Origin: a virus
Taxonomy: Duplodnaviria; Heunggongvirae; Uroviricota; Caudoviricetes
Length of the DNA: 64,000 bases
Direction: 5' to 3' (one strand)
IMG/VR virus record: IMGVR_UViG_3300032007_000003
Coordinates: 248,029-312,028 of that record
This document shows positions 1,392-39,414 of the stretch, in pieces (within the stretch, counting starts at the first letter, position 1; each line of letters starts with the position of its first letter). Below the pieces are notes generated by a model. It was given only the letters and a program-made list of their open reading frames with translations, was not told where the DNA came from and did not search any database. Both the position numbers and the translations under genes were made by a program.

Positions 1392-1470
1392 GGGAACACA
1401 CAGCAAGTATTTCTATTAACAAGTAATTAATTTTGGGTTTTAAGAGTACGGTTAAAAAATGTTCCCTTAT
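1392..1470 (+). ncRNA. motif-initiated structured element (GGGAACACACAGCAAGTAT...TGTTCCC-TT)
   Basis: The 5' 7 nt GGGAACA pair with the downstream TGTTCCC, which is followed by a U-tract. It is one member of a family of at least 11 elements. Confidence 0.35.
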
Positions 1471-1582
1471 AACATAGTTGAAACTGCATTGATTGACTAA
1501 ATTGCCCCACGTCATGATGAGGTGGTGAGAATAGGTAAGGATGCTGCCATGATATGTTACTAGCTAGAGTTTCAACTTACAT

Positions 1583-1657
1583 TGGGGTTTAGTATAACGG
1601 TAGTACGCAAGATTCTGGTCCTTGGTCTGTGGGGGTTCGATTCCCTCAATCCCAACA
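1583..1657 (+). tRNA. tRNA-Gln(CTG)
   Basis: Acceptor TGGGGTT/AATCCCA. Anticodon loop TTCTGGT. T-arm GGGGGTTCGATTCCCTC. Confidence 0.6.
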
Positions 1658-1844
1658 ATTACACGTTACCAAAGGAATGGTTACGAAATGGGAATATTTT
1701 TCTAGAGTATATTCTCTCATAACTGGGACAAATGGGAACGCAGGTCAGTGAAATAAGGGGAATAGAAAGAGAAGACACTGACAACCTCTACCATAAACGT
1801 AATGGTTCTTAAACGAGTAGAATCGCCCTTATTAGATACGGTTC

Positions 1845-1918
1845 GGAAGGTATTGATGTAGTTGCAAATGCATTGGTACAATTACTTCCTTCGATGGGTT
1901 CGAATCCCTCACGTGTAA
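1845..1918 (+). tRNA. tRNA-like (unresolved fold)
   Basis: A GGGTTCGAATCCC T-loop motif is present, but no convincing acceptor or anticodon arm could be assigned by eye. Confidence 0.25.
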
Positions 1919-2115
1919 CATGGAGCTTACTAGTCCCTTAGAGTCGCCAAGCGTCACTAAAACTATGTAAGCCTTGTCGGAGAGCAAGTCTTTTTGAGAC
2001 GTACAATTTTGATACCTAGGGCTGAATGGTAAGTGAGAGATTGTATTATGGCAATAACAGCATATTGGCTTACTTGATTAGATACTGCTCTCCTTTTTTA
2101 GACAATATATAGGAT

Positions 2116-2535
2116 ATGAGTATAGAGAAAAGTTTCGATGGTGCTTTCAAACGAATGAGAGACCGCAATTGGGAGAAGATATATGTGTTGGTAGATATAC
2201 ACGACACCATATTAAAAGCTTGCTACAATGACGAGGAAACGCATCAGTGGTTTCCATATGCTAAAGAGGCTTTGGACATCATGAGTCATGCGCAGCAAAT
2301 ATCGCTCATTCTCTGGACATCAACCTATGATGACATCATCGCTGACTATCTCAAGCACTTTAAGGAGAATGGCATCACATTCGACATGGTGAACATAAAC
2401 CATGAGACAAAGAACACAGATTTGTCTTGTTTCGATGAAAAGACCTATTTCAATGTGGGTATCGATGCAGAAACAGATTGGGAAATATTGTATAACTACC
2501 TTGTTGAAGGAATTAGACTTGGTAAATTTAAGTAA
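2116..2535 (+). CDS. hypothetical protein
   Basis: 139-aa ORF in the gap between tRNA clusters. No confident motif was seen. Confidence 0.45.
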   Translation: MSIEKSFDGAFKRMRDRNWEKIYVLVDIHDTILKACYNDEETHQWFPYAKEALDIMSHAQQISLILWTSTYDDIIADYLKHFKENGITFDMVNINHETKNTDLSCFDEKTYFNVGIDAETDWEILYNYLVEGIRLGKFK

Positions 2536-2735
2536 TATGACTAGTAGTGACTTTGAAATAGCAAATACAAGAATTCATAGTATACTGACAGAGATTGATT
2601 TACATGAGAATAAAATTGTAGAGCTTAAACATGAATTAGAAGATATTAATAATTTCTTAAAAAAATAAAGCATACACAGCTCACCACTGTGGTCAATTCG
2701 AAAGGATTGTGGTTGAGAAACCTATGCTTTTAAAT

Positions 2736-2818
2736 TGTGGAGTTGGGGAGTAGACAAACCCAAGGGTCTGTAAAACCCTCGCCATTTGGCTTCGTAAGTG
2801 CAAATCTTACCTCCACAA
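2736..2818 (+). tRNA. tRNA-Tyr(GTA), type II
   Basis: Acceptor TGTGGAG/CTCCACA. Anticodon stem AGGGT/ACCCT with loop CTGTAAA. Variable arm GCCATTTGGC. T-arm GTAAG-TGCAAAT-CTTAC. Confidence 0.65.
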
Positions 2819-2828
2819 CAAAATAAAT

Positions 2829-2909
2829 CTAGGTGTAACTGGTAATAGGTTTCCAACTGCATTTGGAATGCAGGCGTAATGCATGGGGGTTCGAGTCCCT
2901 TCGCCTAGA
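2829..2909 (+). tRNA. non-canonical type-II tRNA-like gene (anticodon arm TTCCAA-CTGCAT-TTGGAA)
   Basis: Acceptor CTAGGTG/CGCCTAG, a canonical T-arm and a variable arm with a TGCA/TGCA stem. The anticodon arm is a 6-bp stem with a 6-nt loop, or alternatively a 5-bp stem with an 8-nt loop. A paralog lies at 3329-3410. Confidence 0.4.
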
Positions 2910-2942
2910 CAAAGGAATCTTGCAGCAATAGGTATAAGCATC

Positions 2943-3011: not shown

Positions 3012-3039
3012 TTGTTTAAAGGATTCCGATTTTTAACAT

Positions 3040-3113: not shown

Positions 3114-3129
3114 CAAAAAAAAGTTATCA

Positions 3130-3167: not shown

Positions 3168-3196
3168 AAAGTATTTCATAGGCAACAAATACTAAA

Positions 3197-3323
3197 GGAA
3201 ACATACAGCAAGTATTAATAGGTTATAGCATTAAACTGATAATTTAAGGGTCGTTGGTTCGAGTCCAACCCTCCCCACAAAAAATTAAACTTGGGGAGGT
3301 AGCTAAGATGGATAAATGTTTCC
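3197..3323 (+). ncRNA. permuted tRNA-like element (3' half Ile-GAT-like, then 5' acceptor, closed by GGAAACA...TGTTTCC)
   Basis: Order: motif GGAAACATACAGCAAGTAT; anticodon arm TTAAA-CTGATAA-TTTAA; T-arm GTTGGTTCGAGTCCAAC; 3' acceptor CCTCCCC. A 16-nt loop and the matching 5' acceptor GGGGAGG plus a D-arm-like TAGCTAAGATGG come next, before TGTTTCC. Confidence 0.35.
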
Positions 3324-3328: not shown

Positions 3329-3410
3329 TAGGGGAGTAACTGGTAATCGGTTTCCAACTGCATTTGGGGTGCAGGCCTTAGTCGGCATGCGGGTTCGAGT
3401 CCCGTTTCCC
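3329..3410 (+). tRNA. non-canonical type-II tRNA-like gene, paralog of 2829-2909
   Basis: Acceptor AGGGGAG/TTCCCCT. The D-arm ACTGGTAATCGGT and anticodon arm TTCCAA-CTGCAT-TTGGGG match the first copy. T-arm GCGGGTTCGAGTCCCGT. Confidence 0.4.
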
Positions 3411-3465
3411 CTACAAGTTGATGTAAATCAATAAATTACATAAATAGTATAGAGTGTTTTGAATT

Positions 3466-4868: not shown

Positions 4869-4957
4869 GGGAACTCACAGCAAGTTTAAAATGGATAATT
4901 TTTTATTTGACCAAAATGAAAATAGATAGTTCGAGCCTATCAAAGTTATAGTTCCCT
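4869..4957 (+). ncRNA. motif-initiated structured element with a T-arm-like hairpin
   Basis: GGGAACTCACAGCAAGTTT ... GATAG-TTCGAGC-CTATC ... TATAGTTCCC-TTTT. The terminal stem is GGGAACT/AGTTCCC. It is homologous to 39308-39414. Confidence 0.35.
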
Positions 4958-7785: not shown

Positions 7786-7922
7786 GGAAACATCCAGCAA
7801 ATAAAGAGTTATTATTGTAAATTGCTACCGTAACGGTTTGTGGGTTCGACTCCCACACGTCTATCTTAACGAGGGCGTTGGTGAAATTGGTAAACACGGC
7901 TATTGGAGAATAAAATGTTTCC
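7786..7922 (+). ncRNA. permuted tRNA-like element (T-arm then a Leu/Ser-like 5' half; closed by GGAAACA...TGTTTCC)
   Basis: Motif variant GGAAACATCCAGCAAATAAAG, then T-arm TGTGGGTTCGACTCCCACA, then a type-II-like 5' half GAGGGCG-TT-GGTGAAATTGGTAAACAC, then AAAATGTTTCCG-TCTTTTT. Confidence 0.3.
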
Positions 7923-9942: not shown

Positions 9943-10095
9943 AGGAACGTACAGCAATCATTTACTTATTTTAAAACATTGTATTAGATTCGTAAATGAA
10001 GATAAGCGAAGCACTAAATCATAATTGCGAGGCACTTATCTATGCTCTTAGGGGCGAATGTCTAGTCATGACAGTAAATTGACCGTTCCTTTTTA
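9943..10095 (+). ncRNA. motif-initiated structured element
   Basis: AGGAACGTACAGCAATCA ... CGTTCCT-TTTTAT. The terminal stem is AGGAACG/CGTTCCT, followed by a U-tract. Confidence 0.3.
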
Positions 10096-10122: not shown

Positions 10123-10320
10123 GGAAGCGTACAGCATGTACTTAATCATCTTATTACTAACTTAAAAGGTTTCCAATTAAACACTTGCAAGGGCAACCAG
10201 TAAGCGTACCTTTTATAAAAATTAGGCAAAGGGCTAAGTACCACATGGTTAGCTGTGAAGACAGTAGCAGTGTACATGATTAAAGGGAAAAATAGTCATA
10301 ATAAACCTACGCTTCCTTTA
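10123..10320 (+). ncRNA. motif-initiated structured element
   Basis: GGAAGCGTACAGCATGTA ... ACGCTTCC-TTTAAAA. The terminal stem is 8 bp. Confidence 0.3.
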
Positions 10321-13224: not shown

Positions 13225-13311
13225 GTTTGGATAGTCAAGAGGTCGAAGACAACAGACTGTTAATCTGTCGTGGCGTTGTCCCCATCGTAGGTTCGAATCC
13301 TACTCCAAACG
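13225..13311 (+). tRNA. tRNA with long variable arm, anticodon loop CTGTTAA (GTT?)
   Basis: Acceptor GTTTGGA/TCCAAAC. Anticodon stem ACAGA/TCTGT. An 18-nt variable region. T-arm GTAGGTTCGAATCCTAC. The identity is ambiguous. Confidence 0.4.
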
Positions 13312-13316
13312 CAATT

Positions 13317-16427: not shown

Positions 16428-16509
16428 GGGTACACACAGCAAGTATGAATTTACACTTCAAGCAGACTGTCAATTTGTGTAACGTGGGTTCGATTCCTAA
16501 CGGTGTATA
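16428..16509 (+). ncRNA. motif-initiated tRNA-like element
   Basis: GGGTACACACAGCAAGTAT ... T-arm GTGGGTTCGATTCCTAA. The acceptor-like pairing is GTACACA/GGTGTAT. Confidence 0.3.
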
Positions 16510-16573
16510 AAAAATGCACTTGTTTGTACAACATTTCAAAAGTTCGTGATATTTATATATAAATGTCGAACAA

Positions 16574-17491
16574 ATGAAACAATATAAATATAATTATTTC
16601 TACAGGATAGAAAATTTAATTGATGGTAAATTTTATTACGGAATCCACAGTACTGACAATATTGAAGATGGATATATGGGTTCTGGGCATCGTTTAGTAG
16701 AAGCGATGAAAATTTTTGGGAAAAATAATTTCAAAAAAGAGATATTAAAAAATTTTGAAACACGTGAGAAGGCTTCGGAATATGAGGCATTAATGGTGAC
16801 AGAAAATTTAGTTCACGATAGAAATTGTTATAACGTTAAATGTGGTGGCGATTATGGCACTACTAGTGGAACAATATTAGTAAAGGACAAAAACGGAAAA
16901 TGGTCTAGAGTGTCGGTTGAAGATGAACGTTATAAAAGTGGCGAACTAAAGAATATAATGGCTAGTTTAATATCAGTGTATGATAAAAAAGATAACGGTT
17001 ATAAGACAATAACACCAGACGAATTCCATAGCAATGGCGATAGATATATTGGGGTAACAAAAGGGAAAGTGGTTGTCAAGAATGACAAAGGTGAAATATT
17101 ACTTGTTGATGTTGAAGATGAACGTTATAAACGTGGTGAATTAACTGTGGTGTGGAAAGGAAAAAAACATTCAGAAGAAACAAAGATGAAAATTTCTGAG
17201 ACGCACAAAAGAAACCATCACCAACAAGGCGTAAGTAATTCACAATATGGAACGTGTTGGATAACAAAAAATGGAGAAAATAAAAAGGTAAAGAAAGAAG
17301 ATTTGAATATGTTTTTGTCTGATGGGTGGAAAAATGGTAGAAGTAATTTAAATGTTACAACACCTTCAGATTTAATAGATAAAAATAAAGTTATTAGTTT
17401 ATACAAGAAATATAATAATTGGGGTAAAGTCGCTGAAGAATTAGGAATTAGTAGAATGACAATAATGAGGTACAAGAAACGCAACCTATAA
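16574..17491 (+). CDS. GIY-YIG homing endonuclease with C-terminal HTH
   Basis: 'YFYRIENLIDGKFYYGIHS' is the GIY...YIG module. The C-terminal 'NWGKVAEELGISRMTIMRYKK' is HTH-like. Confidence 0.65.
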   Translation: MKQYKYNYFYRIENLIDGKFYYGIHSTDNIEDGYMGSGHRLVEAMKIFGKNNFKKEILKNFETREKASEYEALMVTENLVHDRNCYNVKCGGDYGTTSGTILVKDKNGKWSRVSVEDERYKSGELKNIMASLISVYDKKDNGYKTITPDEFHSNGDRYIGVTKGKVVVKNDKGEILLVDVEDERYKRGELTVVWKGKKHSEETKMKISETHKRNHHQQGVSNSQYGTCWITKNGENKKVKKEDLNMFLSDGWKNGRSNLNVTTPSDLIDKNKVISLYKKYNNWGKVAEELGISRMTIMRYKKRNL

Positions 17492-17535
17492 TTAAACTGG
17501 AGGGGTTGAAATGTTGGTTTTATGTACCCTTTTAT

Positions 17536-17618
17536 GCTGGGGTGGCTGAGAGGTTGAAAGCACTGGCTTTGTAACCCAGAGGCGAAAGCCCACGCAGGTT
17601 CGAATCCTGTCCCCAGCT
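17536..17618 (+). tRNA. type-II tRNA (Ser/Tyr-like D-arm), anticodon loop region CTTTGTAAC unresolved
   Basis: Acceptor GCTGGGG/CCCCAGC (perfect). D-arm GGCTGAGAGGTTGAAAGCA. Variable arm GGCGAAAGCC. T-arm GCAGGTTCGAATCCTGT. Confidence 0.5.
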
Positions 17619-17627
17619 CTAAAAAAT

Positions 17628-17754
17628 GGTGACGTAGCTCAGTCGGTAGAGCACTAAAAAATCAACGTGTTGCCTCGTGTGCGCAACCCACAGCAAATAT
17701 TATGATGAAAGGCTGTTAACCTAGGGGTCTGTGGTTCGAGTCCACACGTCACCG
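17628..17754 (+). tRNA. interrupted tRNA (about 55-nt insertion after the D-arm carrying the CCACAGCAAATAT motif)
   Basis: 5' GGTGACG-TA-GCTCAGTCGGTAGAGC and 3' TGTGGTTCGAGTCCACA-CGTCACC pair perfectly across 126 nt. An Asn-like CTGTTAA loop lies before the T-arm. Confidence 0.45.
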
Positions 17755-17760
17755 CAACTT

Positions 17761-19226: not shown

Positions 19227-19297
19227 TGTGCGGATAGTACAATGGTGAGTACAACTTCTTATACAAGTTAATTGGGGTTCGAGTCCCCACCGCATGC
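19227..19297 (+). tRNA. tRNA-Ile(TAT)-like second copy
   Basis: Anticodon stem AACTT/AAGTT with loop CTTATAC. T-arm TGGGGTTCGAGTCCCCA. The acceptor TGTGCGG/CCGCATG relies on G-U pairs. Confidence 0.4.
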
Positions 19298-19323
19298 TGA
19301 ATTTAAGAAAAAAAGAAGAAAAA

Positions 19324-22328: not shown

Positions 22329-22417
22329 GCTTGAGAAGTTTAATAGGTATAAACGCAGACAGAGGCTGACAACAGCCAAACTGAGATAGAAGGTTCAAAT
22401 CCTATCCACAAGCACCA
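22329..22417 (+). tRNA. degenerate tRNA-like with encoded 3' CCA
   Basis: Acceptor GCTTGAG/CACAAGC at 6 of 7 pairs. D-arm GTTTAATAGGTATAAAC. T-loop GGTTCAAATCC. It ends ...A-CCA. Confidence 0.3.
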
Positions 22418-22418
22418 A

Positions 22419-22551
22419 GGAAACAGACAGCAATGGTTATTTTTTAATAAGCCTTGTAAGCAGTAGGTCATGGGTTCAAATCCCATCGAGGGGTGTAAGC
22501 TCCTTGTAGCTCAGTCTGGTTTAGAGCAACTTAAAATGTTAAAAACGTTTC
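22419..22551 (+). ncRNA. permuted tRNA-like element (T-arm, 3' acceptor, then 5' acceptor plus D-arm; GGAAACA...CGTTTCC)
   Basis: GGAAACAGACAGCAATGG ... CATGGGTTCAAATCCCATC-GAGGGGT-GTAA-GCTCCTT-GTAGCTCAGTCTGGTTTAGAGC ... CGTTTCCG-ATTTTTAA. Confidence 0.3.
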
Positions 22552-22577
22552 CGATTTTTAATTAAAACGAAATAGCA

Positions 22578-23138
22578 ATGGCAGTAGGCGTAATTATCGC
22601 AAGACTTCAGCCAATTCATAAGGGACACCTTGAGTTGGTTAGACAAGCTCTTAATGAGAATGACGAGGTTCTTATCCTTGTTGGTTCAGCAGATAAACTG
22701 AATAAGCGTAATCCAATTCCTATCGCAATGCGTTTGGATTTGGCAAACAAGGCTATTACTGAGGAGTTTGGTGAGGACGCTGGCAAAGTTAAAGTAATGC
22801 CACTTAATGACCTTACAGATGAATCAGATAATTCTCATGATTGGGGTTTTTATCTTTACAGTCATATAGTTGGAATCACTAAGTCACCTGAATTCACTAT
22901 TTATTATTCAGATGGATTTGAGATTATCATGCAGTGGTTTCCTCCATTCATTACGAGAGACTTCGTTTCTTTCAAGTTGAATGCTAGAGGCGCAATCCAC
23001 AACAACTTGTCTGCCACAAAGGTAAGACAGATGATTCTCAAAGGTGATGAAGAGGCTCTTGCAGAAGCCGTACCAACTTGTGTCGCTGAGAATGCGATGA
23101 TATTGAAACATTTCATTGAAGCATTTCAAGATGTATGA
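22578..23138 (+). CDS. nicotinamide-nucleotide adenylyltransferase (NadM/NMNAT-like cytidylyltransferase fold)
   Basis: 'VGVIIARLQPIHKGHLELV' is the (H/T)xGH nucleotidyltransferase motif. The protein is 186 aa. Confidence 0.6.
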   Translation: MAVGVIIARLQPIHKGHLELVRQALNENDEVLILVGSADKLNKRNPIPIAMRLDLANKAITEEFGEDAGKVKVMPLNDLTDESDNSHDWGFYLYSHIVGITKSPEFTIYYSDGFEIIMQWFPPFITRDFVSFKLNARGAIHNNLSATKVRQMILKGDEEALAEAVPTCVAENAMILKHFIEAFQDV

Positions 23139-23490: not shown

Positions 23491-23565
23491 GTTGGTGTAG
23501 CTCAGTTGGTTTAGAGCACTACGCTGATACCGTAGGGGTCAGGGGTTCAAGTCCCTTCACCAACA
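23491..23565 (+). tRNA. tRNA-Ile(GAT)
   Basis: Acceptor GTTGGTG/CACCAAC (perfect). D-arm GCTCAGTTGGTTTAGAGC. Anticodon stem CTACG/CGTAG with loop CTGATAC. T-arm AGGGGTTCAAGTCCCTT. Confidence 0.75.
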
Positions 23566-23984
23566 CAAACATAATGGGCTTGAAACGGTATAGATTGGCT
23601 GTAGTTTGGTAAGAGACAAGCAGTGGGCATACACTTTCAAATAGCAAAAAAATTAAACGCAGAGAACGTAGATTCTCCTGCTTACGAGTTCGCTATTGCA
23701 GCGTAAACGTGAGCCGAGAGGCTAGGCTCTTAGGAACAGAACATCCTAGCAAATTTTTTTTTGATTAGAAGAAAGGTTCCTGGTTCGAGACCTTGGGAGC
23801 ATTGCTTTAGTTCAAAACGCTTAGGTGTGTTGTAGCTGTTGACAGCTTGGTAGAACATTCTGATAATCAAATGGTGGAATCGGTGACTCTAGTCATCCCC
23901 TAGTGTAATGGCGATACACTTTAATAAAACGTTCTGAGGAAGAAAACCTCTTACCAAAAATTGAAAAGTTTGTATAATCTCTTA

Positions 23985-24027
23985 TGGGACGCAGAACAAG
24001 ACGTGGGTTCAACTCCCACCAGGTCCA
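23985..24027 (+). ncRNA. tRNA-like minihelix
   Basis: GGGAC-GCAGAACAAGA-CGTGGGTTCAACTCCCAC-CAGGTCC. Confidence 0.25.
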
Positions 24028-24045
24028 CTAACAATTAGTTACGTT

Positions 24046-24843: not shown

Positions 24844-24999
24844 ATGAAAAAAGTTCCTAAAAAATTTGGAATTCTCAAAAAAAAGATATATCTTTGCAAA
24901 GTTGGAACGAAATAAATGAGGAAACTAACAGCAAACATTTAAACATCAAACTGCTAATTTGAACAACGTTTAAAAAGTTTCCGTTTTATATATAATATC

Positions 25000-25070: not shown

Positions 25071-26164
25071 CAAATGTAACATAAATACTCAGGTGCAATC
25101 GGTAGTAAAGGTTGGCGAGGAAAGTGAGGTTGCGACAAACATACAACCGTATGAAATAAAGCGGATGTCCTTTACCATTAAATTGGTTCTGTAAAATGAA
25201 TCAGCCTTTACAATGTTACATACAATATACTTGGAAGATACCAGAGGAGAAACGGTAGTGTAACAACTAACGGTGTAGACAAATGGGCATCAAGTTCGTG
25301 CTTAGTGTGCTCTTTCGAGAGCTTCGGTGATTCAAATTCACCTCGTTCAACAACTCTCACATTGTAGGCTTCGGCTGAAAATGAGGAGTTTGGCTAGCTT
25401 TCGTAGCCAAATGAAGGATAATCCAGTGATGGGATTAAATGTGATGTGAAGTTGACCATAGTAGCATTACAGATATGTAGGGGCAACCCTATGTATTTCA
25501 CTGAAAAGCATATGGCACGGTCTACATTGGGGGTAACACCTTGGATGTAGGCTCTCAAGGGCTGAATGTCTTTGAGTGAGTGGTAACACAATAGATTGTC
25601 ATATGGAACTTGATGCAATAATCACCAGTTGGCGTGTTGGGTTCAGTTATGTGCTAGTCTTAAGTAGAAATGCTTGAGAACCGTAAGGCTGATAGTATGT
25701 AATAGCAATTGGACTTGTGGTGAGTCTTTGTAGGGAGGCGATTTCGTGGGTCGTGCTCAAAAGGCACGAATGCGATGGGTCGCACCTCGTCTTCCAATGG
25801 TCGCAGAAAAGGTTTGAAATTAATAGGGTTCAAAAGTTTACAAAGCAAAAGTGTGCGACACTAGGCAGCTAAAATGCACTTATCCTTCTGCAATATGAAG
25901 GGGTTGGGGACTCGCAAGGAATCCAACAAGAGAGTAAAAGTACTCGTCTGAGTTAGTAGGAGGCATCCTATGAATCCGCAAGAGCTTGGCGAAGAACTGA
26001 AATCTATGATGCTGTACCGAAAGGTTTAAACTAGTAAGTGTTTGGTTGTTTTCGCAAAACCTCCGTGCATGGTGTCTACGGCTATCGTAAGGTAGCGTGT
26101 GAACAACAACGTCCAACCGTTGTGAAATGGCATCAACAATAAGACAATGTTCTCAGTCTTTTTG

Positions 26165-26297
26165 TGTTTATATAGGGATATAGCTCAGTGGTAGAGTAAT
26201 TTTGTTGCGATTTAAGCTATACACAATACTAACTTCGGAACGTATTGATGCTTTAACTGATAATGAAACGGTCATTGGTTCGAATCCAGTTGTCCCT
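26165..26297 (+). tRNA. interrupted tRNA-Ile(GAT)-like (about 53-nt insertion between the D-arm and anticodon stem)
   Basis: 5' AGGGATA-TA-GCTCAGTGGTAGAGT; 3' TTTAA-CTGATAA-TGAAA-CGGTC-ATTGGTTCGAATCCAGT-TGTCCCT. The acceptor pairs across 133 nt. Confidence 0.4.
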
Positions 26298-26459
26298 GCG
26301 TACCGTGATTATGATGCTTCCACGTATGATAAGCATCTTACTTATTATAGTAGGTTAACATGCTATAGTAGATTGGAGAAGTTTTGGCTACTAATTGTGG
26401 CTAGTAAAATGAAAGTTTTCATCCAATCGTTTTTTATACGGCTTAATATTTAATTATAT

Positions 26460-27038: not shown

Positions 27039-27303
27039 CATAAAACCTACGATGTAGGCGTAGATATGAAAGCGTGGGCACATTTGTCGCAAGGGTTCAC
27101 ACTAAGAAGAATGTAGGGAGAGATATGTAACAATGTCTATGCAGTACCACTAGCGTATAGAATACTATTTCTTTCGATGCTGCCTAATGGTGTGAGAAGC
27201 ACTCTGTGAAGTTCCTATGAGTGGATAGGTAAAAATAAGTCTTCAGCAGAGGTTAAGCTAGATTCCTGATAAATCATATCCGTAGGTTTTTTAAAGATTG
27301 TGG

Positions 27304-27381
27304 AGTAGAGAAGTAGTTAAACTCGCTAGGCTCATAACCTAGTCCCATGTGGTTCGTGGGTGCAAATCCCACCTCCGCTAC
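27304..27381 (+). tRNA. tRNA(CAT) Met/Ile2-like
   Basis: Anticodon stem CTAGG/CCTAG with loop CTCATAA. T-arm GTGGG-TGCAAAT-CCCAC. Acceptor AGTAGAG/CTCCGCT at 6 of 7 pairs. Confidence 0.45.
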
Positions 27382-27386: not shown

Positions 27387-27440
27387 GGAAGCTCACAGCA
27401 ATATTATATAGATTGCAACTCTAGGTTTAACATAGCTTCC
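27387..27440 (+). ncRNA. motif-initiated hairpin element
   Basis: GGAAGCTCACAGCAATATT ... AGCTTCC-GCTTTTT. The terminal stem is 7 bp. Confidence 0.3.
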
Positions 27441-28380: not shown

Positions 28381-28456
28381 TGGGCATATGGCAGAGTGGT
28401 CGATTGCAACGGCTTCTAGGACCGTAAAAGGCGTGGGTTCGAATCCTACTATGCTC
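28381..28456 (+). tRNA. candidate amber-suppressor tRNA (anticodon CTA)
   Basis: Acceptor GGGCATA/TATGCTC. D-arm GGCAGAGTGGTCGATTGC. The anticodon stem ACGGC/ACCGT (C-A mismatch at 31-39) with loop TTCTAGG gives CTA. An alternative is a 4-bp stem with the 9-nt loop CTTCTAGGA. T-arm GTGGGTTCGAATCCTAC. Confidence 0.4.
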
Positions 28457-28840
28457 ACTACGGCTTGGCGTACCCATATTGGGTGCTGAAATAGGTTAGA
28501 CAAGCACAAGCCACGTAAGAAATGGCAGACATGCAGTAATGCGGTGCGAGGATTAGTCCCTTGCCCTAGTTCCTTGATGGTTAAGAGGATACCTTTATGG
28601 TTGGTATAGGCAAACCTATTTTATGTTATGGCAAGCGAAAATAAAAAGAAAAAAGCAAAGAATTCTTATTTAGCCAATGCTAATAAGACTACTGATAAAT
28701 TGAAGAGAATTAACTTTTACAATAAGATAAATAGAGCAGAAAATAAGTGTAAAGTTAAGGATTGTTAAAGTTGAATTAATCATTTGGTTGGTTCAACTTT
28801 TTTTCGTATCTTTACATCAGAAATTTAAAAACAAGGAAAT

Positions 28841-32422: not shown

Positions 32423-32631
32423 TAATACAAGGATGGGCGAGTTTTCCTTTTTTAACAAGACATTAGGGTGAAGTGTCTTTAAAAAACTCGTAAGATTGGC
32501 TTGTCTTAAGGAGCTGAGTGGGTTGTCGGAATTCGACTCTGTGGGGTGAACTAAACCGTCTCGTTAGCTGAGTACAGCCGTTGCCTTTGGGGAAGTGAGC
32601 AACATACTAGTTAAAATCATTTCCCCATTTT

Positions 32632-32718
32632 TATATCTCCTTCGTCTATCGGTTAGGACACCTAGGGGTAACTCACGTGGTAAGAGAGGTTCGATTCCTC
32701 TAGGAGATTCTATAGCAG
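32632..32718 (+). tRNA. tRNA-like (perfect acceptor and T-arm, interior unresolved)
   Basis: Acceptor ATCTCCT/AGGAGAT. T-arm AGAGGTTCGATTCCTCT. It is 87 nt long. Confidence 0.3.
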
Positions 32719-32992: not shown

Positions 32993-33129
32993 GTGCGGTT
33001 CGTCTAGTGGTTCAGGACAACGTTTAAAAAAGTTTTTTAACGTTTCCGTTAGGAAATAGACAGCAGATGTATTATTGAAAAATTATGCATTCCAAGCCGT
33101 AAACAGAGGTTCGAATCCTCTACCGCACT
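32993..33129 (+). tRNA. interrupted tRNA (Glu-like D-arm; about 70-nt insertion with ...CGTTTCC-GTTA-GGAAATAGACAGCAG...)
   Basis: 5' GTGCGGT-TC-GTCTAGTGGTTCAGGAC; 3' AGAGGTTCGAATCCTCT-ACCGCAC. The acceptor pairs perfectly. The insertion holds a hairpin and the motif pair. Confidence 0.4.
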
Positions 33130-33151
33130 CTAATCATTTATTTTATTAATA

Positions 33152-37076: not shown

Positions 37077-37080
37077 AGAC

Positions 37081-38382
37081 ATGAAGAAAATTGTTTTTTG
37101 TTTAATTTCTGTGTTAGCAATGGTTGGATGTCACCCATCATTTCAAACCATCAGTTATCAAGAGCAGCAGAAGCAAGATTTTAATTACAGATTTGAGAGA
37201 AGATTTGGAACACCAGCTTCTGACCAAGATTGGGGTTTTGATGGACTTGAAATCGTAGATTTATCTCTTAAGGCTACTACACGTAGTCACGATGTCAATC
37301 GCAATCAATGGAAGGATAAGTTTGTTGTTCCATCTAATGTTACAGCTAATGAACATGATTTAGTAGTTGCTGAATTTAGTAAAGAGCGTGTTGGTGCAGT
37401 TAATGAGGAAAACATAAATTGGACTGACTATTTCATTTATGAAGTATATAAAGGTGAAGATGTTTATCCAGACGGAAATGGACAAGATGTGAAGGGTTCA
37501 GACCACATGAATCATCTTCAAGTAAAGTATGCTGAAGGTACATTAGCACCACCTAATAATGCTTGTTGGGAGCATGCTAATGATTTCAATAATGGAACAT
37601 CTAGTGGTAATTGGGAAACAATTGAGGGGGCTACCTTAATGGTTAATAGTGGTACATTAGATTTTGCATATCATAATAGTACTGATAGTAAATACCATAG
37701 TGAATATATTATCATTGCTGGAGCAGACATTGACCCTTCTCTTGATGGGTACTACTATGTAGGCTTTGATTTCTATGCAACACATCCAGAGGGACAAGAA
37801 GCAAATAAGAATATGGATGTCGAGCGAAATTGGGTATTCAATGATTGGATTGTAAGAATTAGTCCAGCAACGTTTAAGAATGCCAAACGTATTATTGCTG
37901 AAGACTTGGCAAGCAGTAGTGGTAGTGATTTCGATTATAACGATGTTGTATTTGATGCTACTTTGGCTAACGAATGGATACCTAGTATGAATGACAATAA
38001 ATTGGTAGCGCATATTACGTTAAGAGCAGCTGGAGGAACAATGCCTTTATATGTGGCAGATAGAGAGGTTCACGAACTATTTGGTATTGATACAAGAATA
38101 ATGGTTAACACTGGACAATACTCTCTACCATGTGTTCAGTTTACTGCTATACTTGGTGATGCTGATTGGAATAACACAAAGACAATAAAGGATATTCCAG
38201 TTAAGGTAGTAACCTATAATGGAACTATTACACTTGAGAGTAATAAGGGTGAAGCTTCTGAAAAACTATGTGTTGATAAAACATATGAATGGTGTCTAGA
38301 GCGTGAACCAATTCAAGAGAAATATCCTGACTTTGTAAGATATGTCAGTGATAGAAATGTACAATGGTATCAAGTCCAATAA
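37081..38382 (+). CDS. lipoprotein (large, secreted)
   Basis: MKKIVFCLISVLAMVGC lipobox. 433 aa. Confidence 0.5.
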   Translation: MKKIVFCLISVLAMVGCHPSFQTISYQEQQKQDFNYRFERRFGTPASDQDWGFDGLEIVDLSLKATTRSHDVNRNQWKDKFVVPSNVTANEHDLVVAEFSKERVGAVNEENINWTDYFIYEVYKGEDVYPDGNGQDVKGSDHMNHLQVKYAEGTLAPPNNACWEHANDFNNGTSSGNWETIEGATLMVNSGTLDFAYHNSTDSKYHSEYIIIAGADIDPSLDGYYYVGFDFYATHPEGQEANKNMDVERNWVFNDWIVRISPATFKNAKRIIAEDLASSSGSDFDYNDVVFDATLANEWIPSMNDNKLVAHITLRAAGGTMPLYVADREVHELFGIDTRIMVNTGQYSLPCVQFTAILGDADWNNTKTIKDIPVKVVTYNGTITLESNKGEASEKLCVDKTYEWCLEREPIQEKYPDFVRYVSDRNVQWYQVQ

Positions 38383-38478
38383 ATAACAAGCCACAATGAA
38401 TATTTTATAAACATTGTGGCTTACATTATATTTATTATATACAATTGGGTAAATAATAAGTATAAAAAGTAAGGCAAA

Positions 38479-39078
38479 ATGGTAATAGGTTCAACTAGTT
38501 CATTAACTTACCAACAGCCAAAAAATTGGTGGAAACACTTAATTTGGAGGTTTACAAGACATCAAGAAGTTGATTATGAAATTCAATATAAATTCTATGG
38601 TGTTAGGCTGTTTGAACTAAAATTGTATGTAAACAATAAGAATAAACTAGTTATCAAAAATAAGGGTATGACATATAATGTATTCTCACTATATCAAATT
38701 TTAGATTTTTTTGATAAAATGGGTGATGTGTCAGTATTAGTTACTCTTGATGAAAGTTTTGAGGATTACGTTTATCATGGGGACATACACTCAGTGGAGA
38801 AAAAATTCATAGATAGTTGTAAAGCATTTGAAACAATCTATGAGAATATTATGTTTTATGGCGGCTATAGAGAGTTTGATAAAAAGCAACTATTTAAGTT
38901 TACTTGGGAAGAAGAACATGATGAAATTAGTGTGATAAAACCAGATGATTGGTCTATTATATATAGATTAGCTCAAAGGTTCTGCCCTTTCTTAGTAAGA
39001 AAACTGAATAAAGCATATATAAAGAAATATGATAAATTAAAAGGTTTCTTAATGCTTAGTTATGTAAATAGGCGTTGA
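38479..39078 (+). CDS. hypothetical protein
   Basis: 199-aa ORF. Confidence 0.4.
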   Translation: MVIGSTSSLTYQQPKNWWKHLIWRFTRHQEVDYEIQYKFYGVRLFELKLYVNNKNKLVIKNKGMTYNVFSLYQILDFFDKMGDVSVLVTLDESFEDYVYHGDIHSVEKKFIDSCKAFETIYENIMFYGGYREFDKKQLFKFTWEEEHDEISVIKPDDWSIIYRLAQRFCPFLVRKLNKAYIKKYDKLKGFLMLSYVNRR

Positions 39079-39087
39079 GAAATAACT

Positions 39088-39199
39088 AGGGAGATAGTGT
39101 AACGGTAACACGCTGTAGTTTCCGTTACCTTTGAGGTAACATTACAGCAGTCGTTAGGAAAATAGCTTGTGGTGCCAGTATTGGAGGTTCGAATCCTTC
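39088..39199 (+). tRNA. interrupted tRNA (insertion carrying TTTCCGTTACC-TTTGA-GGTAACATTACAGCAG)
   Basis: 5' AGGGAGA-TA-GTGTAACGGTAACAC; 3' GGAGGTTCGAATCCTTC-TCTCCCT. The acceptor is perfect. GCTGT...ACAGC flank the inserted hairpin. Confidence 0.35.
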
Positions 39200-39212
39200 T
39201 CTCCCTACAAAA

Positions 39213-39305
39213 TGGCGAGGTGGCAGAGTGGTCTATCGCACTTCTCTCATAAGGAAGCGGGTTTAAACTATACCCACCGTTGGTTCAAATCCAACCCTCG
39301 CTACC
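39213..39305 (+). tRNA. type-II-bodied tRNA with anticodon CAT and encoded CCA
   Basis: Acceptor GGCGAGG/CCTCGCT. The D-arm GGCAGAGTGGTCTATCGCA is shared with the CTA tRNA at 28381. Anticodon stem CTTCT/GGAAG with loop CTCATAA. Long variable arm. T-arm GTTGGTTCAAATCCAAC. It ends A-CCA. Confidence 0.45.
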
Positions 39306-39307
39306 AA

Positions 39308-39414
39308 GGGAACTTACAGCAAGTATAACTCGTGAAGGAATGGTCTACTTGAAAGTCTAGAAAACTTTTGCGCATTTGCGCTTGTGGGTTCGAATCCCAC
39401 CGACTATAGTTCTC
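39308..39414 (+). ncRNA. motif-initiated tRNA-like element (type-II-like)
   Basis: GGGAACTTACAGCAAGTATAA ... AAAGT-CTAGAAA-ACTTT ... GCGCATTTGCGC ... GTGGGTTCGAATCCCAC-CGACTAT-AGTTCTC-GTTTT. Confidence 0.3.

What the first reader, a model, noticed from the sequence alone, without database searches (positions are those of the whole stretch)
1392..39414. Recurrent 19-nt motif GGRAAC-nn-ACAGCAAGTAT initiates at least 11 structured elements
Copies start at 1392, 3197, 4869, 7786, 9943, 10123, 16428, 22419, 27387 and 39308. Degenerate copies lie inside tRNA insertions at about 17683, 33051 and 39150. In each free-standing copy the first 7-8 nt pair with a downstream complement, for example GGGAACA with TGTTCCC, or GGAAGCGT with ACGCTTCC. 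The complement is immediately followed by a U-rich tract. Several copies enclose a canonical T-arm hairpin. Lengths range from 55 to 195 nt. The motif is not the host-type promoter and does not code for protein. It could be a processing or splicing signal, a small mobile element with its terminal-inverted-repeat ends, a homing-endonuclease target, or a family of small RNAs.
Basis: seen in the sequence. Interest (0 to 1): 0.8.

Follow-up and report, generated by a model that had tools for sequence, protein, structure and literature searches.

The report
Phage clamp RNAs carrying permuted tRNAs
The repeated 19-base motif is one end of a conserved RNA "clamp" that closes more than a hundred small RNA genes in a group of giant gut/rumen-type phages; many of them are transfer RNAs written in scrambled (circularly permuted) or interrupted order, which has not been described for viruses of bacteria.

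Summary
The motif occurs 11 times at 3 or fewer mismatches, all on the + strand, against 0.32 expected. I count 14 copies, all inside the tRNA array.

It is the 5' half of an RNA clamp:
- a 6-9 bp terminal helix P1 (GGRAACnn / nnGTTYCC) that covaries;
- an invariant unpaired ACAGCA(A) on the 5' strand;
- usually an A-rich 3' strand and a U-rich tail.

Related roughly 0.1-0.4 Mb phage contigs yield 113 distinct copies. 185,579 bacterial and archaeal genomes yield none.

The clamp closes mostly tRNA-derived cargo:
- whole tRNAs in circularly permuted order;
- tRNA-like RNAs without an acceptor stem;
- bare anticodon stem-loops;
- a few non-tRNA RNAs.

The same clamp sits as a hairpin arm between nucleotides 29 and 30 of three colinear tRNA-like genes. 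"Intron" and "permuted" genes are therefore two linearisations of one RNA circle.

There is no bulge-helix-bulge (BHB) motif, no Rfam family and no Ro-binding motif. Function is inferred. I favour stable tRNA-mimic or decoy RNAs with a constant protein-binding handle. The support is mismatched identity elements, closed acceptor stems and anticodons that change between close relatives. The main rival is that they are precursors matured by a new splicing or circularisation route. Either way this is a new RNA family.

The parts
1392..1466 (+). Clamp element, 75 nt. P1 is GGGAACA/TGTTCCC. The bulge is CACAGCAA. The cargo is not a tRNA; it contains the hairpin ATTAA-CAAGTAA-TTAAT and a conserved TTTGGGTTTTA. 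It follows tRNA-Arg(UCG) directly.
   Evidence: Orthologues occur in at least 8 related contigs with GTAT/RTAC covariation.
3197..3323 (+). Clamp closing a circularly permuted tRNA with an Ile(GAU)-type anticodon loop. Order: D loop, D-stem 3' strand, anticodon arm TTAAA-CTGATAA-TTTAA, T arm, acceptor 3' strand CCTCCCC, A73, 15-nt linker, acceptor 5' strand GGGGAGG, D-stem 5' strand. The break is at the start of the D loop.
   Evidence: Partial Rfam tRNA hit at 3212-3270. The orthologue L026 has a wholly different but complementary acceptor, GGCGTGA/TCACGCT.
4869..4956 (+). Clamp element, 88 nt, with a T arm (GATAG-TTCGAGC-CTATC) and no acceptor stem. P2 is ATAATTTT/AAAGTTAT, adjacent to P1'.
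   Evidence: Orthologues are L031:9854, L038:9861 and L050:7292.
7786..7922 (+). Clamp closing a permuted class II tRNA with a Tyr(GUA)-type loop and a long variable arm (ACCG-TAA-CGGT). The T arm is GTGGG-TTCGACT-CCCAC and the acceptor is GGGCGT/ACGTCT. It follows tRNA-Ile(UAU).
   Evidence: Orthologue L038:12608. My parse of its break point is tentative: the automated parse does not handle class II tRNAs.
9943..10090 (+). Clamp (AGGAACG/CGTTCCT) closing about 130 nt of structured cargo that is not a tRNA.
   Evidence: z-score -2.1. Orthologues L038:14159, L032:15718, L051:7176 and L035:17801 share internal blocks. No Rfam hit.
10123..10316 (+). Clamp (GGAAGCGTA/TACGCTTCC, 9 bp) closing about 175 nt of cargo that is not a tRNA.
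   Evidence: 0.009 of shuffles close as well.
16428..17529 (+). Permuted tRNA with an Asp(GUC)-type loop, split in two. The 5' part is 16428-16497, from P1 GGGTACA to the T loop. The 3' part is 17489-17529, with acceptor 5' strand CTGGAGGGG region and P1' TGTACCC. A 991-bp insertion (16498-17488) carrying the GIY-YIG ORF 16574-17491 separates them.
   Evidence: alignment with the intact 132-nt orthologue L038:19837-19968. Pfam GIY-YIG hit.
17628..17755 (+). Colinear tRNA-like gene with an Asn(GUU) anticodon loop. A 54-nt clamp arm (17657-17710) sits between nt 29 and 30: CTA | ...GTTGC-ctcgtgtgc-GCAAC CC ACAGCAAAT... | GG-CTGTTAA-CC-TAG.
   Evidence: (Rfam tRNA, 47 bits, 127 nt).
22419..22552 (+). 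Clamp closing a permuted tRNA with a Thr(UGU)-type loop. The break is at 29/30: ACT | ... | GC-CTTGTAA-GC-AGT. The acceptor CTCCTTG/CGAGGGG is closed by a 6-nt loop.
   Evidence: Weak full-length YrlA hit at 22440-22549 (29.5 bits).
24920..24982 (+). Minimal clamp, 63 nt. P1 is GGAAACT/AGTTTCC, P2 is TTTAAAC/GTTTAAA, and the cargo is a bare anticodon stem-loop, TCAAA-CTGCTAA-TTTGA. A TAnnTTTG box ends 25 nt upstream.
   Evidence: The orthologue L056:15158 differs only at two anticodon positions, GCT to GTA.
27387..27440 (+). Minimal clamp, 54 nt. P1 is GGAAGCT/AGCTTCC. The cargo is an anticodon-loop-like hairpin, AGA-TTGCAAC-TCT. It follows tRNA-Met.
   Evidence: Orthologue L055:17537.
32993..33130 (+). 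Colinear tRNA-like gene with a Gly(UCC) loop. A 64-nt clamp arm (33023-33086) sits between nt 29 and 30: ACG | TTTAAAAAAGTTTTTTAAC-GTTTCC-gtta-GGAAAT-AG-ACAGCAG... | GC-ATTCCAA-GC-CGT.
   Evidence: z-score -3.6. The break point and flanks match the permuted Gly-type copies (L005:2790 and others).
39088..39208 (+). Colinear tRNA-like gene with a His(GUG) loop. A 49-nt clamp arm (39116-39164) sits between nt 29 and 30: CTG | TAGTTTCC-GTTACC-tttg-AGGTAAC-ATT-ACAGCAG... | GC-TTGTGGT-GC-CAG. It lacks the G(-1)/C73 identity pair of tRNA-His.
   Evidence: z-score -3.1. Compare the canonical tRNA-His at 3041.
39308..39414 (+). Clamp attached at the acceptor end of a colinear class II tRNA-like RNA. 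Order: D-like arm, anticodon arm GAAAGT-CTAGAAA-ACTTTT, variable arm GCGC-ATTT-GCGC, T arm. P1 is GGGAACT/AGTTCTC, with one G-U pair.
   Evidence: Weak tRNA-Sec hit at 39324-39408. Orthologues L011, L012, L027 and L058 have covarying stems and differing anticodons.
56303..57697 (+). Context gene and possible partner: CCA-adding tRNA nucleotidyltransferase. None of the tRNAs or permuted tRNAs here encodes CCA at the acceptor end.
   Evidence: The link to the clamp RNAs is inferred, not shown.
59376..60323 (+). Context gene and possible partner: ATP-dependent RNA ligase (PF09414, phrog_548).
   Evidence: The link to the clamp RNAs is inferred, not shown.

Best explanation
**Shown.** The motif is the 5' half of a conserved RNA clamp. 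P1 is a 6-9 bp helix between the first bases (GGRAACnn) and the last bases (nnGTTYCC) of the element. An always-unpaired ACAGCA(A) follows on the 5' strand. The next bases (GTAT or similar) open an inner helix, P2. The 3' strand is usually A-rich, and a U-rich tail follows.

The clamp bounds small RNA genes in the tRNA arrays of one clade of jumbo phages. They are either co-transcribed after a tRNA or carry their own Bacteroidota-type promoter. The cargo is modular and mostly tRNA-derived:
- complete tRNAs in circularly permuted order, opened at the D loop, at 29/30 or near 31/32;
- colinear tRNA-like RNAs clamped at the acceptor end;
- T-arm plus anticodon-arm fragments;
- bare anticodon stem-loops.

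In three colinear genes the same clamp is a hairpin arm between nt 29 and 30. The intron-type and permuted genes therefore encode the same RNA circle, opened at different places.

**Inferred.** These are not ordinary decoding tRNAs. I read them as stable tRNA-mimic small RNAs built like Y RNAs. The constant clamp protects the ends and serves as the sequence-specific handle for a dedicated, probably phage-encoded, protein. The variable tRNA or anticodon-loop module is a bait for proteins that read anticodon loops, most plausibly host anticodon nucleases or other tRNA-targeting defences. They would then belong to the same counter-defence block as the tRNA array, tmRNA, CCA-adding enzyme, RNA ligase and NAD-salvage genes.

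Copies with long linkers carry the same end signals as the real tRNAs. They are probably cut by RNase P and the 3' processing enzymes and then CCA-tailed. That would leave two-piece tRNA-like molecules held together by the clamp.
For: **Structure and family (strong).**
- 11 matches against 0.32 expected, all on the + strand.
- 113 distinct clamp-closed copies in the window plus related phage loci.
- P1 is 92.6% paired against 19-59% in slid controls. Pair 3 is AU57/GC33, pair 5 is AU76/GC9/UA5. Pair 7, which my filter did not require, is AU29/UA29/GC15/UG3, with 78 of 91 paired.
- ACAGCA is invariant.
- 34 elements have a T arm plus an acceptor hairpin with at least 6 of 7 pairs; 28 of them have 7 of 7. 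About 20 different acceptor sequences occur.
- 15 of 34 fit the 29/30 geometry exactly.
- No genuine copy among the matches inspected from 185,579 bacterial and archaeal genomes.
- Copies track tRNA arrays across loci.

**Not ordinary tRNAs.**
- The His-loop gene at 39088 has T(-1)/A73, whereas the canonical tRNA-His at 3041 has G(-1)/C73.
- The same acceptor GGGGAGG/CCTCCCC-A73 is combined with Ile-type and Gly-type anticodon arms.
- Many acceptors are closed by 4-9-nt loops and start with C or U.
- Minimal copies of 41-68 nt carry only an anticodon-like hairpin yet keep their own promoter and a perfect clamp.
- Some cargo is not tRNA at all (9943, 10123).
- All clamp-borne anticodon types that I assigned in the window also exist as canonical tRNAs there.

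**Anticodon is the fast-evolving part.**
- 10 of 98 differences in 12 orthologue pairs fall in the 3-nt anticodon, which is 2.8% of the aligned columns.
- In two pairs the only changes are in the anticodon.
- At the orthologous locus upstream of the AAA_25 gene, other phages carry non-anticodon hairpins instead.

**Architecture as in YrlA.** Full-length though sub-threshold RF02553 alignment.

**End signals.** Long-linker copies have T at -1 and an N73-CAA trailer, like the 42 canonical tRNAs.

**Context.** CCA enzyme, RNA ligase and NAD-salvage genes in the window. This gene set is described as a tRNA-centred counter-defence in jumbo phages (PMC7824862).
Against: - No protein partner was identified, and no TROVE/Ro gene is in the window.
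- The decoy role is inferred from sequence patterns only; there are no expression data.
- The permuted tRNAs keep every canonical tRNA feature (7-bp covarying acceptor, G18G19, T loop, U33, mostly purine 37). They also keep a strikingly constant break point inside a stem (29/30). Both are what one would expect of precursors that are spliced into working tRNAs.
- Anticodon-dependent synthetases (Ile, Met, Thr) could still charge some of them correctly.
- The anticodon enrichment rests on 12 pairs that are not independent.
- Positions 1-6 of P1 were required to pair by my own filter, so only pairs 7-8 and the compensatory pair types are unbiased.
Confidence: 0.42

Rival explanations
1. **Precursors of working tRNAs.** The clamp is the leader-trailer (or intron) helix that marks disrupted tRNA genes for a dedicated maturation route. 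It would be a functional analogue of the archaeal and algal bulge-helix-bulge (BHB) system. An endonuclease removes the clamp. The exon ends, held as a nick inside the anticodon stem (29/30), are sealed by the phage ATP-dependent RNA ligase. This gives a spliced tRNA from intron-type genes, or a circle from permuted genes. RNase P and the 3' processing enzymes then open the circle at the acceptor, and the CCA enzyme finishes it.
For: - Complete, canonical, covarying cloverleaves in permuted order.
- The same break point, 29/30, in Gly-, Thr-, Met-, Asn- and His-type genes, in both intron-type and permuted form.
- A break inside a helix would leave a nicked duplex. That is the preferred substrate of Rnl2-type ligases (own knowledge).
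- A PF09414 RNA ligase and a CCA-adding enzyme are encoded in the window.
- RNase P-type and trailer signals at the permuted acceptor ends match those of the real tRNAs.
- Precedent: permuted and split tRNA genes in algae and archaea (PMC3978253, PMC3218864).
- Homing-endonuclease genes riddle the array. Disrupted genes might escape them, as has been argued for archaea.
Against: - There is no BHB motif, and no splicing endonuclease or RtcB in the window.
- The distance from the clamp to the tRNA junction is not constant: 11-27 nt on the 5' side and 0-15 nt on the 3' side. A ruler from the clamp is therefore excluded.
- Minimal copies, acceptor-less copies and non-tRNA cargo have nothing to splice, yet they keep the clamp perfectly.
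- Acceptor and discriminator identity elements do not match the anticodon. The His type lacks G-1/C73.
- Many acceptors are closed by 4-9-nt loops.
- All the clamp-borne anticodon types that I assigned are redundant with canonical tRNAs.
- No clamp-free allele with the predicted exon-exon junction exists in IMG/VR.
Confidence: 0.27
2. **Punctuation only.** P1 plus the U tract is a long-range intrinsic terminator and end-protecting helix. It may also be a minihelix that RNase P and RNase Z cut like a tRNA. On this view the cargo is decaying tRNA debris with no function of its own.
For: - A U-rich tract follows 71 of 113 copies.
- 45 of 112 sit directly after a tRNA.
- P1 (7-8 bp) stacked on P2, with the bulge on the 5' strand, has the topology of an acceptor/T-stem minihelix (reading).
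- One copy is clearly a pseudogene (16428).
Against: - A terminator needs no invariant ACAGCA bulge and no conserved GGRAAC sequence.
- 42 of 113 copies lack a T-rich tail, for example 3197, which runs straight into the next tRNA.
- Cargo stems covary between phages in the acceptor, anticodon and variable arms. Debris would not.
- The base at -1 is mostly A, unlike the T at -1 of the real tRNAs.
Confidence: 0.12
3. **DNA-level element.** A miniature mobile element with terminal inverted repeats, or a recombination or homing-endonuclease site that shuffles tRNA gene pieces.
For: - The two ends are inverted repeats.
- Copies are numerous and their cargo is modular.
- Four HNH genes and one GIY-YIG gene lie in the array.
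- One element is split by the GIY-YIG gene.
Against: - All 14 window copies, and all the tRNAs, are on one strand.
- P1 contains G-U pairs and compensatory changes, which matter only in RNA.
- No target-site duplication is seen; the flanks are CAA or AGT upstream and T/G plus T-rich downstream.
- In intron-type copies the arms are in the order 3' strand, loop, 5' strand.
- The GIY-YIG insertion lies in the T arm and acceptor, not at the motif.
Confidence: 0.05

Closest known systems
Circularly permuted tRNA genes of Cyanidioschyzon merolae, other algae and Thermofilum pendens (PMC3978253, PMC3218864)
   Same: The 3' part of the tRNA lies upstream of the 5' part in one transcript, joined by a short linker at the acceptor ends. 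Leader and trailer pair with each other. Break points fall at several positions, including the D loop and the anticodon arm. Intron-containing and permuted versions of the same architecture coexist.
   Different: The known cases carry a bulge-helix-bulge (BHB) motif, which the archaeal or eukaryal splicing endonuclease cuts and which is then ligated into a circle. Here there is no BHB. Instead there is a sequence-conserved helix plus an ACAGCA bulge. The host is a virus of bacteria, where that endonuclease is not known (own knowledge). Many members have no tRNA to mature, and identity elements do not fit the anticodons.
YrlA-type bacterial and phage Y RNAs, Rfam RF02553 (PMC4201824)
   Same: A modular small RNA whose 5' and 3' ends form a long stem with internal loops, attached to a tRNA-like module in the order T arm, closed acceptor-like stem-loop, D arm. 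M. smegmatis YrlA is cut by RNase P and CCA-tailed. These RNAs also occur in phages and in an RNA-repair context. The RF02553 model aligns full-length to 22440-22549.
   Different: The score is far below the gathering threshold (29.5 against 69 bits). The Ro/Rsr-binding motif GNCGAAN0-1G is absent. No TROVE gene is in the window. Most clamp RNAs keep a complete anticodon stem-loop, which YrlA lacks. The clamp attaches at several different tRNA positions.
"Enigmatic introns" of Lak megaphage tRNAs (PMC6784885, Table S6)
   Same: Large phages of Bacteroidota-type hosts carry tRNA genes interrupted by 50-90-nt insertions. These insertions are highly conserved, themselves contain tRNA-like hairpins, and have no Rfam match and no known splicing route.
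   Different: The two Lak insertions I read (Tyr and Phe) are predicted at 37/38 in the anticodon loop and lack the ACAGCA motif. No permuted or free-standing forms were reported.
Split tRNA genes of Nanoarchaeum equitans and two-piece (permuted) tmRNA
   Same: tRNA or tRNA-like molecules assembled from pieces held together by complementary flanking sequences. As I recall, the N. equitans tRNA-His is split at 29/30 (own knowledge, not checked here). Two-piece tmRNA shows that bacteria can use a permuted tRNA-like RNA without ligation.
   Different: N. equitans uses a BHB motif plus a splicing endonuclease. tmRNA has an mRNA module and SmpB. Neither has the clamp sequence.

Membership tests
Circularly permuted tRNA gene (algal/archaeal type) | The 3' part (T arm, acceptor 3' strand) lies upstream of the 5' part (acceptor 5' strand, D arm) on one strand, joined by a short linker | tested here: met
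   34 elements, with linkers of 3-22 nt. Window copies: 3197, 7786, 22419 and 16428 (split).
Circularly permuted tRNA gene (algal/archaeal type) | The two parts rebuild a cloverleaf, supported by compensatory changes | tested here: met
   28 elements have 7 of 7 acceptor pairs, with about 20 different acceptor sequences. 15 of 34 have all five anticodon-stem pairs formed across the break. 33 of 34 in-silico un-permuted constructs are called as tRNAs by ARAGORN.
Circularly permuted tRNA gene (algal/archaeal type) | Bulge-helix-bulge (BHB) motif (3-nt bulge, 4-bp helix, 3-nt bulge) at the leader/trailer junction | tested here: not met
   Junction sequences and folds show P1, then an 8-9-nt one-sided bulge, then an AT-rich P2 of variable length. 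No 4-bp helix flanked by two 3-nt bulges can be drawn at the 29/30 junctions. This was checked by hand, not with a dedicated BHB scanner.
Circularly permuted tRNA gene (algal/archaeal type) | A circular RNA intermediate, with a splicing endonuclease and an RtcB-type ligase available | not testable with these tools
   No such Pfam domains in the roughly 50 window ORFs scanned. No RNA data.
YrlA / bacterial Y RNA (RF02553) | tRNA-like module (T arm, closed acceptor-like hairpin, D arm) carried on a stem formed by the 5' and 3' ends | tested here: met
   Full-length alignment to the model at 22440-22549. The same topology is seen in all permuted copies.
YrlA / bacterial Y RNA (RF02553) | Reaches the Rfam gathering score | tested here: not met
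   29.5 and 26.9 bits against 69.
YrlA / bacterial Y RNA (RF02553) | Ro/Rsr-binding motif GNCGAAN0-1G in the stem, and an adjacent rsr (TROVE) gene | tested here: not met
   The motif occurs in 1 of 113 elements and not in the stem. No TROVE hit in the window ORFs. The rest of the genome was not tested.
Canonical tRNA (RF00005) | Colinear cloverleaf reaching the model threshold, with identity elements that fit the anticodon | tested here: not met
   Only a partial hit at 3212-3270 (31 bits), plus hits with a 50-60-nt insertion at 17628. The His-loop gene lacks G-1/C73.
Known self-cleaving ribozymes and group I introns (Rfam) | Match to any curated model | tested here: not met
   No ribozyme or intron family at any clamp copy, even at E up to 5 over 1-41000.
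Intrinsic terminator | A stable hairpin immediately followed by a U tract | tested here: inconclusive
   P1' is followed by at least 4 T in 8 nt in 71 of 113 copies. The helix is long-range (41-220 nt), and 42 copies lack the tract.
MITE-like mobile DNA element | Terminal inverted repeats with target-site duplication, homogeneous copies, both orientations | tested here: not met
   One strand only. No duplication in the flanks. Cargo of 20-200 nt of unrelated kinds. G-U pairs in P1.

The most novel reading that the evidence does not exclude
The clamp is the recognition element of a BHB-independent RNA excision and end-joining pathway in a virus of bacteria. This pathway would turn circularly permuted and stem-interrupted (29/30) genes into working tRNAs through nick sealing and a circular intermediate. 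It would be protein-dependent (an unknown phage endonuclease plus the PF09414 ligase) or partly RNA-catalysed. It would amount to a third, independent solution to tRNA splicing, alongside group I self-splicing and the archaeal/eukaryal endonuclease system.
Probability: 0.22. Interest if true: 0.95.

Novelty: new variant of a known kind. Interest (0 to 1): 0.8.

Why it matters
- Circularly permuted tRNA genes are known only from a few algae and one archaeon. There they depend on the bulge-helix-bulge (BHB) splicing machinery, which bacteria lack. Dozens of them in phages of bacteria, tied to a different and sequence-conserved module, point to one of two things. Either there is a new way to mature disrupted tRNA genes, or there is a large new class of tRNA-mimic RNAs used in the conflict over host tRNA-targeting defences.
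- The finding gives the "enigmatic introns" of megaphage tRNAs a concrete, testable anatomy: arm position 29/30, the clamp, and equivalence with the permuted genes.
- It yields a defined RNA handle of about 25 nt (P1 plus ACAGCA) that can be used to fish for the partner protein.
- The anticodon-focused divergence in RNAs that cannot decode is an unusual signature. It suggests selection by anticodon-reading proteins.

Tried and rejected
1. **Clamp-only covariance model** (R1, built from the first 20 plus last 16 nt of 91 copies). With filters off it recovered only fragments, at E of 0.17 or worse, because it cannot bridge cargo of 20-180 nt. It is useless as a search tool.
2. **ARAGORN on a grid of trimmed, un-permuted constructs**. 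It calls tRNAs for 33 of 34 elements but is too permissive to fix the junction. Break points were set by an explicit pairing parse and by hand.
3. **Rfam** at gathering and at E up to 5. Nothing at the clamp itself; only tRNA, YrlA and tRNA-Sec echoes of the cargo.
4. **BHB motif.** Not drawable at the junctions.
5. **Bacterial and archaeal genomes**. 99 exact matches. The 37 read in context were mostly coding-sequence or otherwise chance matches, and none has the clamp architecture.
6. **GenBank phages.** No near relative. Only a 26%-identity protein hit to a 635-kb uncultured phage.
7. **A trans target complementary to the bulge** (ATACTTGCTGT). No + strand excess beyond the copies themselves.
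8. **Cis pairing of ACAGC.** It can pair with GCUGU of some anticodon loops or exons (17628, 39088), but the partner is not general.
9. **Clamp-free alleles.** Exact exon-exon junctions for the three interrupted genes are absent from IMG/VR.
10. **Neighbours of the ligase and CCA genes.** No PDB or Pfam matches. The ligase subtype was not resolved; there is only a weak hit to the archaeal ATP-dependent RNA ligase 5d1o (E = 0.15).
11. **Literature.** No paper in the held library describes permuted tRNAs in phages or this sequence.

Full report

Yes. GGRAACNNACAGCAAGTAT with up to 3 mismatches occurs 11 times, always on the + strand. Dinucleotide shuffles give a mean of 0.32 and a maximum of 2. 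A looser scan adds 27387 and 33052. Reading the sequence adds the arm inside 39088-39208. That makes 14 copies, all between 1.3 and 39.4 kb. This is exactly the span of the tRNA array: 42 ARAGORN tRNAs, plus a tmRNA at 23576-24030.

Ten of the eleven free-standing copies have a complement of their first 6-9 bases 54-194 nt downstream. Singly these closures are unimpressive, since 0.009-0.38 of shuffles do as well. Jointly the product is 9e-11.

The eleventh copy (16428) has its closing strand at 17523-17529. A 991-bp insertion carrying the GIY-YIG gene has split the element. The intact 132-nt orthologue is L038:19837-19968.

The window comes from a 412,231-bp metagenomic contig with 35.5% G+C. 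It has no close relative among GenBank phages.

**2. Anatomy of the constant part**

An exact-pattern scan of IMG/VR found 16 genuine loci in contigs of up to 413 kb. Three protein-anchored scans added 32 loci from the same clade. Across the window and these loci I found 113 non-redundant motif copies with a closing helix, 41-220 nt long.

The consensus runs as follows:
- upstream, (C)AA or AGT;
- P1 5' strand, G G R A A C n n;
- A CAGCA A, with C10-A14 invariant in 91 of 91;
- then a G/T-rich, T-rich stretch;
- at the 3' end, five or six A-rich positions, n, G T T Y C C;
- then T or G and a T-rich tract, with at least 4 T in 8 nt in 71 of 113 copies.

P1 covaries. 92.6% of cells are paired, against 19-59% when the partner is slid. 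Pair 1 is GC83/AU8, pair 3 is AU57/GC33/CG1, and pair 5 is AU76/GC9/UA5/GU1. Pair 7, which my selection did not require, is AU29/UA29/GC15/UG3/CG1/GU1, paired in 78 of 91. G-U pairs and one-strand bias make this an RNA structure, not a DNA repeat.

ACAGCA never has a fixed partner. The bases after it (GTAT and similar) open the next helix, whose partner changes with the sub-family. It is RTAC in the 1392 type, TTACT in the L037 type, and ATA just before P1' in the 39308 type.

The constant module is therefore a terminal helix with an 8-9-nt one-sided bulge, nnACAGCAA. Opposite it lie 0-8 mostly A residues.

**3. What the clamp encloses**

- **Whole tRNAs in circularly permuted order.** 34 elements contain, in this order: an anticodon arm, a variable region, a canonical T arm, a 7-nt acceptor 3' strand, a discriminator, a 3-22-nt AT-rich linker, the complementary acceptor 5' strand, and a D arm. 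28 have 7 of 7 acceptor pairs, with about 20 different acceptor sequences. One orthologue pair shows CCTCCCC/GGGGAGG against TCACGCT/GGCGTGA. Window examples are 3197-3323 (Ile-type loop), 7786-7922 (class II, Tyr-type), 22419-22552 (Thr-type) and the split 16428 (Asp-type).
- **Colinear tRNA-like RNAs clamped at the acceptor end** (39308-39414), or lacking an acceptor (4869-4956).
- **Minimal elements of 41-68 nt.** Their only cargo is a hairpin, very often a perfect anticodon stem-loop mimic such as CTGCAAA, CTGTAAA, CTGTGAA or CTTGAAA. Window examples are 24920 and 27387.
- **Cargo that is not a tRNA** (1392, 9943, 10123).

**4. Break points, and the link to the "tRNA insertions"**

An explicit parse shows that 15 of 34 permuted tRNAs are opened exactly between nt 29 and 30. 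Three anticodon-stem pairs (27-29 with 41-43) form between the two pieces. Two pairs (30-31 with 39-40) plus the 7-nt loop lie in the 3' piece. About nine more are opened at the start of the D loop, and three near 31/32.

The three interrupted colinear genes of the window carry the same clamp, as a hairpin, at the same place:
- Asn-type 17628-17755: CTA | ... | GG-CTGTTAA-CC-TAG;
- Gly-type 32993-33130: ACG | ... GTTTCC-gtta-GGAAAT-AG-ACAGCAG ... | GC-ATTCCAA-GC-CGT;
- His-type 39088-39208: CTG | ... | GC-TTGTGGT-GC-CAG.

The Gly and Thr types occur in both forms with the same flanks (L005:2790 against the window copy at 32993; L002:12058 against L052:8198). Intron-type and permuted genes are thus two linearisations of one RNA circle. 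One is opened at the acceptor, the other at the P1 loop.

**5. Comparison with known systems**

*Permuted tRNA genes.* The gene order is that of the permuted tRNA genes of algae and Thermofilum. Their defining bulge-helix-bulge (BHB) motif, however, cannot be drawn at the junctions. No splicing endonuclease or RtcB is found among about 50 window ORFs.

*YrlA Y RNAs.* The topology, a tRNA-like module on a stem made by the two ends, is that of YrlA Y RNAs. RF02553 aligns full-length to 22440-22549 but at 29.5 bits against a threshold of 69. The Ro-binding motif GNCGAAN0-1G is absent, occurring in 1 of 113 copies and not in the stem (motif from PMC4201824). No TROVE gene is in the window.

*Other families.* No ribozyme or intron family matches, even at E up to 5.

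*Lak megaphage introns.* The two that I read (Tyr and Phe) sit at 37/38, contain T-arm-like hairpins and lack ACAGCA (PMC6784885 Table S6). They are a related phenomenon but not the same family.

*Distribution.* 99 exact matches in 185,579 bacterial and archaeal genomes were found. The 37 read in context were mostly coding-sequence or otherwise chance matches, and none has the clamp architecture. Clamp copies track tRNA arrays across related loci.

**6. How it most likely works**

*Shown.* This is an RNA-level, sequence-conserved clamp with modular tRNA-derived cargo and consistent attachment points.

*Inferred, with good support.* The long-linker permuted copies are cut at the acceptor ends like real tRNAs. 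They have T at -1 and the trailer N73-C-A-A, the same signatures as the 42 canonical tRNAs of the window. The phage encodes a CCA-adding enzyme. M. smegmatis YrlA is a precedent for RNase P cutting and CCA addition on such a topology.

*Several facts argue that these are not decoders:*
- The His-loop gene lacks G-1/C73, while the canonical tRNA-His has it.
- One acceptor/D module is combined with different anticodon arms.
- Many acceptors are closed by 4-9-nt loops and begin with C or U.
- Minimal and non-tRNA members keep the clamp perfectly.
- An arm at 29/30 would sit where the ribosome contacts the anticodon stem (own knowledge).
- In 12 orthologue pairs, 10 of 98 differences hit the 3-nt anticodon, which is 2.8% of the columns. 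In two pairs, including an acceptor-less minimal element, the only changes are in the anticodon.
- At one orthologous locus, other phages replace the anticodon arm by unrelated hairpins.

*Preferred reading (confidence about 0.4).* I therefore favour stable tRNA-mimic RNAs. The clamp is the handle for a dedicated protein and protects the ends. The anticodon module is a bait for anticodon-reading proteins such as host anticodon nucleases. This fits the surrounding counter-defence genes: RNA ligase, CCA enzyme and an NAD-salvage set (PMC7824862).

*Main rival (about 0.27).* The clamp marks precursors for a new excision and ligation route. The constant in-stem break point would leave a nick suited to an Rnl2-type ligase, and the fully canonical cloverleaves speak for it. 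Against it stand the variable clamp-to-junction distances, the members with nothing to splice and the identity mismatches.

*Weaker alternatives.* Pure terminator or punctuation (0.12) and DNA-level mobility (0.05) are less likely.

**7. Verdict**

This is a genuine, abundant, phage-restricted RNA family. Neither Rfam nor the searchable literature contains it. It includes what appear to be the first circularly permuted tRNA-type genes in a virus of bacteria. It unifies them with stem-inserted "introns". Its function is unresolved, but it can now be tested directly.

Noticed in passing
window 25733-26159 (+): Full-length match to GOLLD RNA (RF02032) at 79 bits, E = 5e-19. This is below the gathering score of 150. 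It lies directly upstream of an interrupted tRNA.
   Followed up: no
window 26174-26299 (+): Another interrupted tRNA (Rfam 41.6 bits, 125 nt) with a 52-nt insertion on the 5' side of a CTGATAA loop. It lacks ACAGCA and has only a GGAACGTA remnant. It may be a decayed clamp or a second insertion family.
   Followed up: partly
window 16498-17488 (+): A 991-bp insertion carrying a GIY-YIG homing-endonuclease ORF (16574-17491). Relative to L038, it replaces 21 nt (T-stem 3' strand, acceptor 3' strand, start of the linker) of a permuted tRNA gene. This is a free-standing endonuclease gene that has inactivated a clamp element.
   Followed up: yes
window 23491-24030 (+); 28382-28458 (+): A phage tmRNA (RF00023, 56.9 bits) sits directly after tRNA-Ile(GAU). 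An amber-suppressor tRNA(CUA) suggests TAG recoding, so ORFs called with the standard code may be split.
   Followed up: no
window 1476-1577 (+): A roughly 100-nt element closed by a 10-bp helix (AGTTGAAACT/AGTTTCAACT), between the 1392 clamp and tRNA-Gln. It contains a C-box-like ATGATGA. L001, L017 and L028 have the same closing helix with a different interior. No Rfam hit.
   Followed up: no
window 22328-22417 (+): A tRNA-like 3' end (GATAG..GGTTCAAATCC..CTATC, CACAAGC-ACCA) that neither ARAGORN nor Rfam calls. It has an encoded CCA and lies immediately upstream of the 22419 clamp.
   Followed up: no
window 32558-32710 and L059/L061 9900-10000: A family of tRNA-like bodies (TTCGTCTAKYGGTTMAGGAC ... 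AGAGGTTCGAWTCCTCT). Their anticodon arm is hypervariable between related phages: a clamp arm plus Gly-type loop in the window, L057 and L011:3749; a 3-nt-loop or 4-nt-loop hairpin in L059 and L061.
   Followed up: partly
window 2829-2910, 3330-3414, 13225-13312, 17536-17619, 27299-27381, 39214-39306: Otherwise canonical class I tRNAs (Pro, Asn, Thr, Met) of 82-93 nt with 10-20-nt hairpin insertions in the variable region. All tRNAs lack an encoded CCA and have the trailer N73-C-A-A and T at -1.
   Followed up: no
window 19294-19986; 22578-23138; 41019-41573; 58094-58669; 61860-63104: An endonuclease V-like gene sits inside the tRNA array. There is also an NAD-salvage set: a cytidylyltransferase-like (possibly NMNAT) gene, NUDIX, isochorismatase/nicotinamidase and NAPRTase. 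The last two (58-63 kb) flank the RNA ligase and lie just downstream of the CCA-adding enzyme gene.
   Followed up: no
window 17690-17715 and 39110-39150: The invariant ACAGC can pair in cis with GCUGU. In the Asn-type gene that is nt 31-35, covering the anticodon. In the His-type gene it is nt 26-30 of the 5' exon. Both pairings appear in the minimum-free-energy folds. The partner is not general across the family.
   Followed up: partly
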